Shown here piece by piece: positions 45,001-54,000 of a stretch of DNA of 64,000 nucleotides. Position 1 is the first letter of the stretch. Each line of letters opens with the position of its first letter. The position numbers were made by a program. Source of the DNA: Argopecten irradians (taxonomy: Eukaryota). The stretch lies in contig NC_091142.1 in NCBI RefSeq assembly GCF_041381155.1, positions 29,933,528 through 29,997,527 on the forward strand, written 5' to 3'.

Positions 45001-48000
45001 AATGTTTATCCGTGCTACAACCACCACTCATAAAAACGCTGTTATCAAAACGTTTTATCAAAAATTTCGATTAGTAATTACCCTGCCACCAAAATCATTA
45101 ATAATATATTATTTCACTTTAAAAAATATTCACAAATGAATTTTTTATTACATATAATATAAAACATAAAATTTGCTTAAATACTTATTATTTAATTTTT
45201 ACAATTTATCAGTACAATTAATGAAAATTGGCAAAAATGCCATGTTGTTAATGAAACACAACCCCCACCCCTTCCACCAATTGTTACTCCCCCCAACCTA
45301 TTCATCACCTTCACCGGAACATGCATGTACAGTTTCGTTGAACTAAATTCTGATCAAACTGAGGAGACCTTGCAAACCGATTTCAAAATGATCGTACCCA
45401 TCTTCCGTTAAAACATGCCACAACGATAAGCCGTGCAAAATTACCTGGTACATACGTTATTTTCACATCAACTTAAAAATGGCAATTATAAATAAACTGG
45501 TTGCATGGTCACATGACAAGTATTATTCTAAAACTTGGCCCCTTAAACAAACATATACAATCATGAATCTAGAACTTCGGCTCCAGTGACTGACTATTTT
45601 TATAACTTCCGGTTGCGTGCTATAAGAGCAACCAACTTAATGATTGTACAGAGACCACAGTGTGAAACCATTTGTTAATAGTTTGTGTAAATGTATTATT
45701 AATACAAAGGTAGATATTATTAGTTAGCTGTTGTGGTTCATATAATTAAAGGCTAGGTTCTCTTATTACACTAATTTATAGAAAAAAAAGTTTTTGGGTC
45801 ATTCTGCTCAAACTCCAACCAGGGTAGCTTTATTTGAAAATCAGGCGCATTTTGCACTATAAAATACTGTAATCCTGAATGATGTTAACCTATTCTTTAT
45901 CTAAGGTGAAAGTGTGAACCTAAAATCTCAATAATGTGAATTTCCAAAATTCATATCATTGTTATCTAGGATTAATTAACTTCAGAAAAAAACATTTTTA
46001 CTTTTGAAATTCATATTTAAGCCAGCCAATCAGCGCCGGGCATTAAAATTCTATCTGCTGGTCTTCAATCTTGTTATACACACAGGGGGGGGGGGGGCCA
46101 TATGCGGAAGACAAGAACGGAGGGTTCGTTCTTTTCATTTAGTTGGTTTTTCCCCTAGAGGCAGGAAGGATAGTTAAAATTAACATTTCCTATACTCACT
46201 ATGATGTAAAATGTGTATTTTCTTGGCTGTATGTCAAATCTTTGTAATATGAACTTAATCGGTGGAAGTGGTTTTTGTCCAGGACAGGGCTTCAACCTTC
46301 GACAGTCACCCGGGAGTAGTAGTAAAAAACGTATAGTAATTCTGAAAACATGGGAAATATCTTGAACTTACACACACTGTGTTGATTAATTGCCAATTAT
46401 GTATTAAATATTGAAATCGTGTTAATGTTGTATTTAAGTTAATTATTGGTTACATCATTAAACTTTCTGAATATAATGAATAAAATAGGAAAAGTCCCCC
46501 AGCCAAGGGGATGGAGATAATCCATTGATTACATATCCACGGTACCCTCCTATATTATATAGAAAATGTCAAAGATTTTGGATAGGAGAAAACCCAATAT
46601 ACCAACCCTTTTACATATCATTCAAATTTACCAGGAACATGCAAGGTTCCAGTAGTCCTTTTTTGCTGTTTAAAATAAACAAAATAAAAAAAACAAAGGA
46701 TCAAACCTGTAATCGAGCTCAAATAAAAGAGATATGCATGTCTTTGTTCCGTGACTGGAATTCTGTGCAACAACCAATATAATTTTCCGGAAATTCTTGA
46801 ATGACCCTGAAACACCATTAATATGTTTCAATTAACAGAAAAAAATATTCACAAATGTATTATTCATCATTATAACAAAAATTCATACTTTTACTAAATC
46901 GTATTAGCCTAATACTTACAATAATCAGGACATTTCTTGAAATTGCTTACCTAGGAAGGTACACCCCCACCCCCTCCCCGCCCACCAATATACCGGCAGT
47001 ATAAAAACCCACACCCCAAACTAACATTATGTAATACAATGTAATTGTCTCCACCATAATGTACCATTTCAAAGTATAAAGCTGGTAACGTAATTTATAC
47101 CTTATGGCGTGCCACTCCAATATGGCAGAGACGACTGACACCCCCCCCCCCCCAATTTCTTGATTTGACCGCTAATTCCTGGTTCATCTAAAAAACCGGA
47201 ACATGCATACAGTTTCCGTGAACTAAAATTCTGACCAACTGAGGAGACCATGCACCGCGCACCCATGTGATCGTACCCATCTGATGTTAAACGCACATGT
47301 CACACGTTTTTATAGCCGTGCTAATTACCTGAATCTACGTTATATGTACCATTAAACTTACTGGCCAATTCTAAATAAACTGCATGCATAGTCACAGTGA
47401 CACGTATTATTCTAAAACTTGGCGGACTTACCTTTGTATCAATGGACCCACTCACTCGGCTCCAGTGACTGACTCTTATACTTCCGGTTGCGTTCGCTAT
47501 AGAGGAGGCAACCAACTAAATGATTTTACATAGACCACAGTGTTAAACTTTGTTAAAGTTTTGTACTGTATTATTAAAACAAAGGAATATTAGTTAGCTA
47601 TTGTGTTCTATAATTAAAGTCTAGGTTCTCATATAACACTAGATAGAAAAAAAGTTTGGGTCCTTCTGCTCAAATTCCAACCAGGGTAGCTTTATTGAAA
47701 TCAGGCGCATTTTGCACTAAAAAATCCTGAAATTCTAATGTTTTTACCTATTCATTATCAAAATTGATATTTTGAACCTAAATCTCAATATGAATTTCCA
47801 AATTCATATCATGGTTATCTAGGAATAATTACCTGTCAGAAAACATTTTTACTTTTGAAATTCATAATTAGCCAGCCAATCAGCGGCCGGGTTAAAATTC
47901 TATCCTGGGCTCAATCTTGTATACACAGGGGCCATTTCGAAGGTCTTTTTTTTATTTAGTTGGTTGATCCCTTCTTTATATTTTTTTTTTATAGCAGAAA

Positions 48001-51000: not shown

Positions 51001-54000
51001 CATTACTGGGTTTGATCTTTATGGTTGTATTTATTTGTTTATTTTTTAAACAGAAAAGGCTGGTGGAACCAATGTTTCCTGGTTAAATTTGAATTATATA
51101 AAAGGTTTGGTATATCTGGTTTTATTCCATAAATCTTTGACTCATTTTCTATATTATAGGGATACCTGATTATGTAATGGAGTATCTCCCCTTCCGGCTG
51201 GTGGACTTTTCCTAATTTTTCAGAAGTTTATTATATTCAGAGAAAGAAATTTAATGATTTGTAACCAATAATTAACTTAAACAACATTAATACTATTTCA
51301 ATATTTAATACATAATTTGCAATTAATCAACAAAGTGTGTAAGTTTCAATATTCATGTTTTTTCAGAATAATTTCTCGGTGTGGGCGGGTGGGAGTTGTC
51401 CGCGGCGTGCGTTGGGTGACTGTTCCGAAGGTGAACCTTTTGCCCTGTCCTGGACAAACACACTTGGAACGATCAACGCATTAAGTACATATTACAGAAT
51501 TTGACATACAGCCGGAATACACTTTACATCATTGGTGAGTATTGGAAATTTTTAATTTACTGCCTATAGGGGTCAAACCAACTAAATAAAAAAAAAAGAC
51601 CTTCGAAATGGCCCCTGTGAAATACAAGATTGAGCCCAGGATAGAAAATTTAACCCGGCCGCTGATGGTGCTGGCTAATTATTGAATTTCAAAGTAAAAA
51701 TGTTTTTTCTGACAGGTAATTTATTCCTAGATAACCATGATATGAATTTTGGAAATTCATATTGCGATTTAGGTTCAAAATATTCAACTTTGATAATGAA
51801 TAGGTTTAAAAGCATTAGAATTTCAGGATTTTTTTAGTGCAAAATGCGCCAGATTTCAATAAAGGCTACCCTAAGATTGGGGGTTTGAGCAGAAGGACCC
51901 AAACCTTTTTTTTCTATTTAGAGTTATATGAGAACCTAGACTTTAATTATATAGAACACAATAGCTAACTAATATTCCTTTGTTTTAATAATACAGTACA
52001 AAAACTTTAACAAAGTTTAACACCTTTGTGGTCTATGTAAAAATTATTTAGTTGGTGTTGCTCTCATTACCACTGACAGGGTGTTGGTAAACATCAATAC
52101 TTCTCCTAAGGATTGACCTCATTGTTTTAGAAACGGAGAAACCTTATACAGATTTCATAATGACGAGAATGTTATAAGGCTGTTTGGATAGTGGGTAAAA
52201 AAATAATGGTACCTTAGTCTTGACCGTGGTTCTTATAAGAAAGACCTTCTCCGGAGTAATACTATGTCCACCAAGAGCTATTATTTAATCTAGAGATCTC
52301 AGAATTGAAAATTGAAGAGTGACTGGTTTTTGCTGAAACCAGAACATTTAAAGGTTAATTCTTTGTAGGAGATATTTTGGACATTTATGGATTGTCTTTT
52401 ATAATTCTTTGCATAAAACAAAGGAAATTTGGTAAATAATAACCTATAATTTTCTCTTAAAATTAGTGCTACATGGACACTTAAGCGCCCTTAATTGGAT
52501 ATGTTGCACCTTATTAAGATGTTTAAACTAGGCAGGCGTATAGAATGTCGTTTTTTTATTTTTTTATCTAAATAGGCCTTTATAATATTTTTTCCACTCA
52601 TTTCAATTTTTAAGCCGTATAGACGAATTGTAGCCCGCAGATACATCAGAACTTAGGACATTATGAACTGATATGATGTGCTGTTTATAGGGCCAAAAAG
52701 GAGGGGAATAACAAGAGAGCAAAACTGTAGAATAGAGCTCGACAACGTTTAGGTATCAGGGCCTAGCGTCATCTCTGATTCAGACTGGACACCGAGAGAA
52801 GCACCACTAAACCTTTGTCTATTCAACAAATGACTATTAAATCCACCATAAAAAAATATAGCAATACGTCGTGATTAAAGGTGGATTTTGCATTACTACG
52901 TGAAAATGGCGACGAAGACGAGGGAAATCTTAAAGCTTGAGGAAAAGTAGCTACTGAGTTGACAACAAATAGAAAGAGCTGATGCTTGGATGAAATGGAT
53001 GGCTAAGAGTAGGTAAATTATTCATTTAGGGTTGGAAATGGACAATGGTAAAGGACGATCCATTGTGTGGTTTTCAATTATTTTTGTATGTAGTCTGAAT
53101 TCAGATTTTAATTCCCTTTCCAACGAGGTAAAAATTCGACCCATAGAGATTCTTTTCAGTTGTAAGGATTTTTGTACTGTCTTTCATAGACCCAAACACC
53201 TGCTGTTCATTAATTCTCTGCCGCGAGATACTCGAGGAACTTTTGAAAAAAGTTCTAAGGTTCTCTGGCGTTGCATTTTTCACCGATGTTCCAGTTATTG
53301 TATGAACCTTTTGCTCAGAATTGTAGGATGAAATAAGCTCCTCTCTTTTGTTTTCTTTGACGGTACTTAAGTAAGGGATTAACACTTATTACAAAACTAC
53401 ATTAGCTACAGGTACGTTAAACACACACACACATCAACCAAGCATTTAAACTGCTTATAGTCCGTTATCAAAAAGCCGGCACTGGAAACTCCTTTCTTTC
53501 AGGGATATGCGTTGAGGTTTTAGGGAATTAGTCCCATAACAGAAGATAAGACTATAGTCTATTCTGCAAAACGTTAAACTCCACAAACTTGAAAATATAA
53601 AAAAAGAACCTAATAATATAGGGTAGGTTTAGTGGACATTGTTTTTCAAAAAACAAGGAAGCATAGGTAGATAGTTTAACTATTATATTTACATTTTTAT
53701 CCATCTTTGGGGTCTCTGTATTAAAATATTGTTTTACCCGTAAGTTAAGCTTGGCCAGGAAAATCATGTATAAAACATTGATGACTAATTCCCTCATATA
53801 TGGAAACAGCCATTTTGAACGGTGATCAGTAGACGGTTTTACCATGTCAACACTTTGTTGACGTCCTAATGATCACGTTTTGGAATGGTCAGTTTGATCT
53901 CCATAGACTTACCCTTTCCCTTGGTTAAATAATAGTAGAGTAGGAAGTGGCAGCTGAATGTTTAAATACATGTATTATAAAGAGTTATATTATTTTGTTA

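What the first reader, a model, noticed from the sequence alone, without database searches (positions are those of the whole stretch)
45290..52075. About 6.8-kb imperfect palindrome with nested duplicated repeat units
Reverse-complement homology runs the whole length of the two arms (left ~45290-48693, right ~48952-52075) around a ~258-bp unique spacer. Arm identity is only ~85-90%, so this is an old genuine inverted duplication, not a hairpin assembly artefact (which would be ~100%). Each arm carries two copies of a ~1.1-kb repeat (X) in tandem, so a tandemly duplicated segment was subsequently duplicated in inverted orientation. Palindromes of this size are rare. They are typically unstable and prone to cruciform extrusion and breakage, and in other organisms are associated with gene amplification, fragile sites or foldback transposons.
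Basis: seen in the sequence. Interest (0 to 1): 0.85.

Follow-up and report, generated by a model that had tools for sequence, protein, structure and literature searches.

The report
Old diverged inverted duplication, non-coding
This is a real but ordinary 6.4-kb inverted duplication of non-coding DNA in what looks like a mollusc genome; its two arms have drifted to about 80% identity except where they have been partly re-homogenised, and nothing found here indicates a gene, a transposon or a fragile site.

Summary
One continuous reverse-complement alignment joins 45622-48693 to 52067-48952 around a unique 258-bp spacer (48694-48951). Both arms carry the same block order: X core, Y, X, Z.

Three details need correcting:
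- Mirrored homology starts at 45622, not 45290. The outer right X copy is 5'-truncated.
- Arm identity is 83% gap-free (74% counting gaps), not 85-90%.
- Identity is very patchy, from 64% to 97% by segment.

The block order supports "tandem duplication first, then inverted duplication". Branch lengths do not fit one event plus neutral decay. X2 and X2' differ at 20 sites, X1 and X1' at 119. X1' is 91% identical to X2/X2' but only 79% to its partner X1. I infer later gene conversion.

The locus has no ORF over 97 codons, no Pfam remnant and no Rfam match. It has no target-site duplication, no other copy in the window and no match in the public DNA collections. The genome is animal, probably molluscan, and is absent from the databases searched.

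With a 258-bp spacer and about 20% divergence, published yeast data argue against cruciform-driven instability. The verdict is a genuine but unremarkable old inverted segmental duplication. Whether X is a dispersed repeat family could not be tested.

The parts
45104..45621 (+). 5' part of repeat unit X1. X proper starts at about 45261 with a poly-C tract. This part has NO mirrored partner in the right arm.
   Evidence: Direct homology 45104-45281 to 46823-46989 (66%) and 45261-46440 to 47140-48237 (74%). No similarity to the right flank 52068-52600 (z=-0.1).
45622..46440 (+). X1 core, the outer end of the left arm. It is the most diverged of the four cores.
   Evidence: 77.7% identity to X1'. 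87 unique substitutions against 30 in X1'.
46441..46822 (+). Y, the inter-unit segment of the left arm.
   Evidence: Homologous to Y' (z=69; 73.5% gap-free). Unrelated to Z (z=-0.5).
46823..47507 (+). 5' part of X2. The distal part (46823-47113) is 64% identical to its partner and the proximal part (47114-47507) 88%.
47508..48237 (+). X2 core, the homogenised tract of the left arm.
   Evidence: 95.9% identity to the X2' core. Includes a 326-nt stretch at 98% and a 166-nt identical run.
48238..48693 (+). Z, the innermost left-arm segment. The outer part is 81.6% identical to Z'. The inner 127 nt (48567-48693) is 96.8% identical and CpG-rich.
   Evidence: The central 571 nt folds as a long hairpin when single-stranded (z=-26.8).
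48694..48951 (.). Unique, asymmetric 258-bp spacer (CpG observed/expected about 1.3).
   Evidence: No self-complementarity (z=0.8). CpG profile. Junction sequences.
48952..49419 (-). Z', the mirror of Z.
49420..50138 (-). X2' core, the homogenised tract of the right arm.
   Evidence: 95.9% identity to the X2 core.
50139..50896 (-). 5' part of X2'.
   Evidence: 88% proximal, 64% distal.
50897..51273 (-). Y', the mirror of Y.
51274..52067 (-). X1', core only. This is the outer end of the right arm. Homology stops at the start of the core (CAACCAACTAAAT motif).
   Evidence: 91% identity to X2/X2' but 79% to its partner X1.

Best explanation
The locus is an old inverted segmental duplication in non-coding DNA (intergenic or intronic) of an animal genome, probably a mollusc.

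Proposed history:
1. A block that already contained two diverged copies of a ~1.1-1.4-kb non-coding unit (X core-Y-X-Z) was copied once in reverse orientation next to itself. This left a 258-bp single-copy loop. A single-copy loop is the expected signature of a fold-back or template-switch repair or replication event, not of end-to-end sister-chromatid fusion.
2. The two arms then decayed neutrally to about 64-78% identity.
3. Non-reciprocal exchange (gene conversion) re-homogenised parts of the structure. The inner X2/X2' pair and the innermost 127 bp are now about 96-97% identical. The outer right copy X1' was partly overwritten with X2-type sequence. X1 escaped.

What is shown: the inverted block duplication, the spacer, the absence of coding or RNA features, the heterogeneity of identity, and the branch-length conflict.

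What is inferred: the fold-back mechanism, gene conversion as the cause of the patchiness, and the absence of any function. My reading is that the structure does nothing. It is a decaying structural relic.
For: - A single continuous minus-strand HSP spans the arms.
- Y/Y' and the distal X2 5' region are significantly homologous between arms, while the flanks and the spacer are not.
- Quartet partitions favour X1,X1'|X2,X2' by 19 characters to 5.
- Partner-pair distances are 119 vs 20 sites (p=2e-18), and terminal branches 87 vs 30 (p=1e-7).
- The sites that still group X1 with X1' cluster at 46149-46186 and 46409-46417, as expected for unconverted remnants.
- Identity heterogeneity: chi-square 279.5 on 29 df, and an identical run of 166 nt against at most 71 in permutations.
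- The longest stop-free stretch is 97 codons and there is no Pfam hit above noise. There is no Rfam match even at E<=1 and no tRNA.
- Arm mismatches are mostly transversions with many indels, which looks neutral.
- Arm-to-arm gene conversion is the established behaviour of palindromes (PMC8981503 and PMC8600007, listed).
Against: - Gene conversion is inferred from the pattern alone. There is no GC bias at the 87 X1-specific sites (28 W->S vs 29 S->W), so that common hallmark is absent.
- The high-identity zone is not a simple gradient from the centre. Z outer is only 82%, lying between two ~96% tracts.
- X1 is the outlier in every 100-column window of the core, not only outside the putative conversion tracts. 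A faster or different history for X1 cannot be excluded, for example conversion from an unseen paralogue elsewhere in the genome.
- The junction microhomology that would diagnose fold-back cannot be recovered, because no ancestral or outgroup sequence is available.
- Whether X is a dispersed repeat family was not testable. The source genome is not in any collection searched.
Confidence: 0.65

Rival explanations
1. X, or the whole X-Y unit, is a non-autonomous mobile or satellite-like repeat family. Bivalve MITEs and Helentron-borne repeats mix tandem and inverted copies in this way. On this view the locus is a local cluster of that family, and the similarity of X2, X2' and X1' reflects family dynamics more than local gene conversion.
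For: - The ~800-bp core is a discrete module. X1' begins exactly at its first bases.
- The core start CAACCAACTAAAT is the reverse complement of ATTTAGTTGGTTG, found about 460 bp downstream inside a 53-nt motif that recurs three times per arm.
- The window is rich in other repeats: a 73-bp satellite, a 456-bp tandem repeat, another inverted-repeat-bounded 3.6-kb element, and LTR retroelements.
- Mollusc genomes are known for composite MITE, satellite and Helentron repeats (PMC3879986 and PMC7492417, listed).
Against: - Not one fragment of X, Y or Z occurs in the other 57 kb of the window, even at E<=1.
- The non-X segments Y and Z are also mirrored in the same order, so the arms are one block duplication and not independent insertions.
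- No target-site duplications flank X or the whole structure.
- Two X-core motifs gave no hits in the metagenome, prokaryotic-genome or viral collections. Those collections would rarely contain this animal, so this is weak evidence.
Confidence: 0.2
2. It is a foldback-type or long-TIR DNA transposon. The 3-kb arms are its terminal inverted repeats and the 258-bp spacer is its loop.
For: The overall shape fits: long inverted arms, a short unique centre and no coding capacity, as in non-autonomous foldback elements. The innermost 127 nt plus the spacer fold into a strong hairpin.
Against: - The outer ends are asymmetric. The left unit runs 360-520 bp further than the right.
- The bases flanking 45622 and 52067 are not a direct repeat.
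- The arms hold no short tandem subrepeats of the kind that build Drosophila FB termini (the description of FB termini is from my own knowledge).
- Arm identity falls to 64-78% at the outer ends, where functional termini would be expected to match.
- No second copy exists in the window.
Confidence: 0.05
3. It is a functional inverted-repeat locus. Either read-through transcription makes a ~600-bp near-perfect double-stranded hairpin RNA that feeds small-RNA pathways, or it is a head-to-head pair of non-coding RNA genes driven outward from the CpG-rich centre. In both cases selection or conversion keeps the inner arms alike.
For: - The inner tract 47597-48190 / 49480-50053 is 97-100% identical while the rest has decayed.
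- The centre is a small CpG-rich patch (observed/expected 1.3 against 0.2-0.6 in the arms).
- All four cores conserve a CCAAT-box-like motif, AGCCAGCCAATCAGCG.
Against: - No expression data are available.
- There is no Rfam family.
- High identity is equally explained by recent gene conversion.
- The conserved motifs are short.
- X1 and the outer arm are decaying as neutral sequence would.
Confidence: 0.06
4. It is an assembly artefact, such as a chimeric fold-back read or a collapsed or mis-joined repeat.
For: Inverted joins are a known artefact class. No read data are available here to exclude it directly.
Against: The arms differ at 504 of 2926 aligned positions, with 336 further gap columns, and have different lengths (3072 vs 3116 bp). 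A read-level fold-back would give essentially identical arms and no 258-bp unique spacer.
Confidence: 0.02

Closest known systems
Fold-back (spacer-containing) inverted duplications, as characterised at human breakpoints (Hermetz et al. 2014, PMC3907307)
   Same: Two inverted copies are separated by a short, single-copy, asymmetric spacer. The flanks are unrelated and no transposon hallmarks are present.
   Different: This one is tiny (3 kb against kb-to-Mb duplications), interstitial and ancient. No terminal deletion or translocation partner can be assessed. The diagnostic 2-8-bp inverted microhomology at the spacer junction cannot be recovered without the ancestral sequence.
Large sex-chromosome palindromes maintained by arm-to-arm gene conversion (human Y P1-P8 and primate X palindromes; PMC8600007, PMC8981503, PMC8327919)
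   Same: Palindrome-with-spacer architecture. There is evidence that parts of the arms are kept or made alike after the duplication.
   Different: Those have arms usually over 8-10 kb at over 99% identity, carry testis-expressed gene families and show GC-biased conversion. This one has 3.1-kb arms at 83% overall, no genes, homogenisation limited to about 1.2 kb, and no GC bias.
Composite non-autonomous repeats of bivalves (tandem-repeat-containing MITEs such as DTC84, PMC3879986; Helentron-borne satellite-like arrays, PMC7492417)
   Same: Non-coding modular repeats in an AT-rich, probably molluscan genome, mixing direct and inverted copies and short internal inverted motifs.
   Different: The published elements are short, high-copy and bounded by defined termini. 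X is 1.1-1.4 kb, is seen only at this locus, and shows no termini or target-site duplications. No sequence comparison with those families was possible.
Drosophila-type foldback (FB) transposons
   Same: Long inverted arms around a short loop, with no coding capacity.
   Different: The arms are not built of short tandem subrepeats, the ends are asymmetric and there is no target-site duplication. Copy number is unknown.

Membership tests
Inverted segmental duplication with spacer (fold-back / template-switch origin) | Continuous reverse-complement homology between two adjacent arms | tested here: met
   Single HSP 45622-48693 vs 52067-48952. All sub-segments are significant against shuffles.
Inverted segmental duplication with spacer (fold-back / template-switch origin) | Single-copy, non-palindromic spacer between the arms | tested here: met
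   258 bp, 48694-48951. Self-reverse-complement score z=0.8. No copy elsewhere in the window.
Inverted segmental duplication with spacer (fold-back / template-switch origin) | Short inverted microhomology at the spacer/inverted-copy junction relative to the ancestral sequence | not testable with these tools
   This needs the pre-duplication or an outgroup sequence. Any priming microhomology is now part of the arms (junctions shown).
Foldback / long-TIR DNA transposon | Target-site duplication flanking symmetric termini | tested here: not met
   The flanks ...gcgtgct|ATAAGAG and CTCTCAT|taccact are not direct repeats. The left unit extends 360-520 bp beyond the mirrored region.
Foldback / long-TIR DNA transposon | Multiple dispersed copies in the genome | not testable with these tools
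   No copy in the other 57 kb of the window. No hits in the metagenome, genome or viral collections. The source genome itself is unavailable.
Foldback / long-TIR DNA transposon | Arms composed of short tandem subrepeats (FB type) | tested here: not met
   Tandem Repeats Finder reports no array between 45 and 52 kb.
Gene-conversion-maintained large palindromes (sex-chromosome type) | Arm identity above 99% over arms of at least 8 kb | tested here: not met
   Arms of 3.07 and 3.12 kb, 82.8% gap-free identity.
Gene-conversion-maintained large palindromes (sex-chromosome type) | Protein-coding gene families in the arms | tested here: not met
   Longest stop-free stretch is 97 codons. No Pfam domain above noise.
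Gene-conversion-maintained large palindromes (sex-chromosome type) | Arm-to-arm gene conversion | tested here: inconclusive
   Patchy identity and the branch-length conflict fit conversion. There is no GC bias and no population or outgroup data.
Penelope-like element head-to-head pairs / retrozymes | RT/GIY-YIG coding remnants or hammerhead ribozyme motifs in the repeats | tested here: not met
   No Pfam remnant. No Rfam hit, including hammerhead families, at E<=1.
Hairpin assembly artefact | Near-100% identical arms joined without a unique spacer | tested here: not met
   17% mismatches, 336 gap columns and a 258-bp spacer.
Hairpin-RNA (small-RNA-generating inverted repeat) locus | Transcription through both arms and small RNAs mapping to them | not testable with these tools
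   No expression data. Only the structural prerequisite is present, a ~600-bp tract at 97-100% complementarity.

The most novel reading that the evidence does not exclude
The inner, nearly identical 1.1-1.5 kb of each arm and the CpG-rich centre could form a functional unit. It could be a hairpin-RNA (endogenous siRNA or piRNA precursor) locus, or a divergently transcribed pair of non-coding RNA genes in a mollusc. In that case its arms would be kept matched by selection acting through gene conversion while the outer, older copies decay.
Probability: 0.06. Interest if true: 0.5.

Novelty: new member of a known kind. Interest (0 to 1): 0.18.

Why it matters
It matters little on its own. Diverged inverted duplications of a few kilobases are a routine product of fold-back or template-switch repair in eukaryotic genomes. 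This one carries no gene, no RNA family and no transposon hallmark.

Its modest value is as a small worked example of mosaic homogenisation inside a nested repeat. Three of the four copies evolve in concert and one has escaped. It is also a caution that palindrome-like shape alone does not imply fragility when the spacer is hundreds of bp and the arms are about 20% diverged.

It would become interesting only if expression or small-RNA data showed that the near-identical inner arms are used.

Tried and rejected
- **Rfam.** Searched the whole window at gathering thresholds and the locus at E<=1. Nothing was found.
- **tRNA or SINE origin.** ARAGORN found no tRNA genes.
- **Coding potential.** ORF lists, stop-to-stop fragments and Pfam on the ten longest fragments gave only sub-threshold noise.
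- **Source genome.**
  - An exact look-up of the 463-aa ORF was not on record.
  - A 60-aa RNF34-like exon query found nothing. In hindsight it was too short for the word-based index, so that search was wasted.
  - The RT ORF gave only ~50% identical hits, with molluscan names among the highest-ranked named ones. The species is therefore absent from the databases, and I ran no further search on X-derived pseudo-ORFs.
- **X elsewhere.** Low-stringency blastn against the rest of the window found only chance-level matches of 41 nt or less. Two conserved X-core motifs scanned against the metagenome (twice), prokaryotic-genome and viral collections gave 0 hits.
- **My own reading of the tree.** I rejected that, because the unrooted topology is the same. 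Only the branch lengths conflict.
- **GC-biased gene conversion.** No bias was found.
- **Target-site duplications.** None were found around the whole structure or around X proper.
- **Collections not searched.** The phage, plasmid and E. coli collections were left out as irrelevant to an animal genome.
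Full report
**1. What kind of sequence this is**

The window is 34.5% G+C and carries no tRNA genes or Rfam families. Its recognisable content is:
- two short exon-like ORFs with RNF34/rififylin SAP-type domains on the minus strand at 9.6-11.2 kb;
- a degenerate LTR retroelement (RT, integrase and gag-like ORFs at 17.2-20.2 kb, flanked by 110-bp direct repeats at 16489-16598 and 20468-20577);
- a gag-protease/zinc-finger ORF at 31.0-32.4 kb.

The highest-ranked named relatives of the RT ORF are molluscan: Haliotis, Liolophura, Mytilus and Saccostrea. 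They reach only about 50% identity. Fish and cnidarian sequences appear further down the list at about 42-48%. An exact look-up and a short exon query found nothing. So this is an animal genome, probably a mollusc, and the species itself is absent from the searchable collections.

**2. The observation**

Gapped blastn of the window against itself gives one minus-strand alignment from 45622-48693 to 52067-48952 (3301 columns, 79.6% identity, E=0).

The inner boundaries and the 258-bp spacer (48694-48951) are exactly as stated. The spacer is not self-complementary (z=0.8). The sequences outside the arms are unrelated to each other (z<0).

The weakest-looking stretches are still clearly homologous between the arms against dinucleotide shuffles. 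Y (46441-46822) versus Y' scores z=69. The distal 5' part of X2 versus its partner scores z=22.

A careful pairwise alignment gives arms of 3072 and 3116 bp. Identity is 82.8% over 2926 gap-free columns and 74.2% if the 336 gap columns are counted.

**3. Anatomy**

| Left arm | Coordinates | Right-arm partner | Identity |
|---|---|---|---|
| X1 5' part | 45104-45621 | none | - |
| X1 core | 45622-46440 | 52067-51274 | 77.7% |
| Y | 46441-46822 | 51273-50897 | 73.5% |
| X2 5' distal | 46823-47113 | 50896-50530 | 64.3% |
| X2 5' proximal | 47114-47507 | 50529-50139 | 88.0% |
| X2 core | 47508-48237 | 50138-49420 | 95.9% |
| Z outer | 48238-48566 | 49419-49082 | 81.6% |
| Z inner | 48567-48693 | 49081-48952 | 96.8% |

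- The right arm mirrors the left from the centre outwards, but its outer copy X1' consists of the ~800-bp core only. Homology stops at 52067, at the first bases of the core.
- X proper is about 1.1-1.2 kb (45261-46440 and 47140-48237). A weaker upstream match (45104-45281 to 46823-46989, 66%) extends the unit to about 1.35-1.4 kb. The copies are spaced 1.72-1.88 kb start to start, so they are not strictly head-to-tail.
- A 53-nt motif (GGGGCCATTTCGAAGGTCTTTTTTTTATTTAGTTGGTTGATCC) recurs three times per arm. Its tail is the reverse complement of the core's first 13 nt. I could not interpret this further.

**4. What it is not**

- **Not coding.** The longest stop-free stretch anywhere in 45.1-52.1 kb is 97 codons. 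It is not conserved in the other arm. The ten longest fragments give no Pfam match above noise.
- **Not a known RNA.** There is no Rfam family even at E<=1, so no hammerhead ribozymes of Penelope-like or retrozyme repeats either.
- **Not built of short tandem repeats.** Tandem Repeats Finder sees no short tandem arrays in the arms.
- **Not a recognisable transposon.** No target-site duplication brackets the structure or X proper.
- **Not seen elsewhere.** No fragment of X, Y, Z or the spacer occurs in the other 57 kb of the window at E<=1. Two conserved core motifs have no exact match in the metagenome, prokaryotic-genome or viral collections. Those collections would rarely contain this animal, so the negatives are weak.
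- **Not an assembly fold-back.** The arms differ at 504 aligned sites plus indels.

**5. History**

Both arms carry X core-Y-X-Z in the same order.

Among the four cores, the characters that split the copies two against two favour X1+X1' versus X2+X2'. The count is 9 substitutions and 10 shared indels, against 2 and 3 for the alternatives. I first misread the rooted-looking tree (X1,(X1',(X2,X2'))) as a contradiction. It has the same unrooted topology.

The branch lengths do conflict with the simple history. If one inverted duplication created both partner pairs, they should be equally diverged. They are not:
- X1 and X1' differ at 119 biallelic sites, X2 and X2' at 20 (p=2e-18).
- X1 has 87 private changes against 30 in X1' (p=1e-7).
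- X1' is 91% identical to X2/X2' but only 79% to its positional partner X1.
- The few sites that still group X1 with X1' cluster at 46149-46186 and 46409-46417.

Along the arms, identity is far from uniform (chi-square 279.5 on 29 df). The longest identical run is 166 nt, against at most 71 in 1000 permutations.

The simplest reading is an old duplication whose unconverted parts now sit at about 64-78%. Later non-reciprocal homogenisation acted on the inner X2/X2' pair and the innermost 127 bp, and partly overwrote X1' with X2-type sequence. This is an inference. There is no GC bias at the informative sites (28 vs 29), and I have no population or outgroup data.

**6. Mechanism of origin**

[quoted passage not shown] The authors explain it by a broken end folding back on itself at a short inverted microhomology and priming synthesis. 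Sister-chromatid U-type fusion predicts no spacer.

The 258-bp asymmetric spacer here fits the fold-back or template-switch class. The diagnostic microhomology cannot be checked without the ancestral sequence. The right arm ends inside X1 while the left continues. This is compatible with the left arm being the template and the right arm the copy, but it is not proof.

**7.

In the yeast Alu inverted-repeat system:
- lengthening the spacer from 12 to 100 bp reduces recombination about 300-fold;
- lengthening it from 12 to 200 bp reduces gross rearrangements about 20-fold;
- instability in duplex DNA disappears at about 75% homology.

Only within long single-stranded DNA do distant, divergent repeats interact efficiently (PMC10164571).

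With a 258-bp spacer and arms averaging about 80%, spontaneous cruciform extrusion is not expected. The central 571 nt fold into a long hairpin if single-stranded (z=-26.8). That follows from the 127-nt, 97% inner arms and says nothing about duplex behaviour. There is no gene here to amplify.

Inverted structures are not rare in this window. A 3.6-kb segment at 34.25-37.89 kb has 97% inverted ends, and three 100-160-bp self-complementary elements lie at 26.6-29.4 kb.

**8. Residual possibilities**

- X may belong to a dispersed non-coding repeat family typical of bivalves (PMC3879986 and PMC7492417, listed). This is untestable here and would not change the block-duplication conclusion.
- The near-identical inner arms, the CpG-rich centre (observed/expected about 1.3 against 0.2-0.6 in the arms) and a conserved CCAAT-like motif leave a small chance of a transcribed hairpin-RNA or head-to-head non-coding RNA locus.

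**9. Verdict**

This is a genuine, old, partly re-homogenised inverted segmental duplication of non-coding DNA. It is a new instance of a well-known kind of structure and of low interest.

Noticed in passing
window 1-819: A satellite-like tandem array with a 73-bp unit, about 10.5 copies at 91% match (higher-order period about 296 bp), running off the left end of the window.
   Followed up: no
window 38854-40060: A tandem repeat with a 456-bp unit, 2.7 copies at 97% identity. A 55-nt piece recurs at 42562-42614. Weaker 58-bp and ~189-bp tandem repeats lie next to it at 38336-38524 and 40372-40747.
   Followed up: no
window 34253-34563 and 37458-37889: A second inverted-repeat structure with ~150-nt blocks at 97% complementarity, bounding a 3.6-kb segment with no ORF of 110 aa or more. 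The inverted homology seems to continue a little into the flanks (aatcggtttct / agaaaccgatt). It looks like a non-autonomous TIR element, but the termini and any target-site duplication were not resolved.
   Followed up: partly
window 26633-26793, 27519-27673, 29295-29393: Three short self-complementary (hairpin-like) elements of about 100-160 bp at 76-84% identity. They may be MITE-like foldbacks. A 31-bp tandem repeat lies at 28632-28787.
   Followed up: no
window 16489-20577 (- strand ORFs): A degenerate LTR retroelement. Direct repeats of 110 bp (94.5% identity) at 16489-16598 and 20468-20577 flank ORFs with RT (PF00078, E=4e-22), an integrase-core remnant and a PNMA/gag-like domain. The highest-ranked named RT relatives are molluscan, at about 50% identity.
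   Followed up: partly
window 31005-32396 (-): An intact 463-aa ORF with a retroviral-type aspartyl protease domain and a C2H2 zinc finger, in a G+C-rich (43%) patch. It is probably part of another retroelement or a domesticated gag-protease gene. The exact sequence is not on record in the assembly index.
   Followed up: partly
window 9625-9975 and 10859-11212 (-): Two exon-like ORFs with rififylin-like (PF22968, E=1e-18) and RNF34/RFFL SAP (PF23632, E=6e-12) domains. They indicate a host RNF34/RFFL-type E3 ligase gene on the minus strand, about 35 kb from the palindrome.
   Followed up: partly
window 44060-44340: A sharp 280-bp G+C/CpG island (51% GC, CpG observed/expected 1.6, 26 CpGs in 250 bp) with internal short repeats (CGCTTTGAAGAT and TCATGGTGACATG, each twice). 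It lies about 0.8 kb left of X1 in otherwise AT-rich DNA. It could be a promoter, an exon or a small repeat element.
   Followed up: no
window 47920-47971, 48230-48283, 46095-46165 and mirrored copies at 49373-49425, 49669-49727, 51565-51617: A 53-nt motif, GGGGCCATTTCGAAGGTCTTTTTTTTATTTAGTTGGTTGATCC, recurs three times per arm. Its tail is the reverse complement of the first 13 nt of the X core, and the second copy sits exactly at the 3' boundary of X2. It may be a MITE terminus or a recombination or template-switch scar. It remains unexplained.
   Followed up: partly
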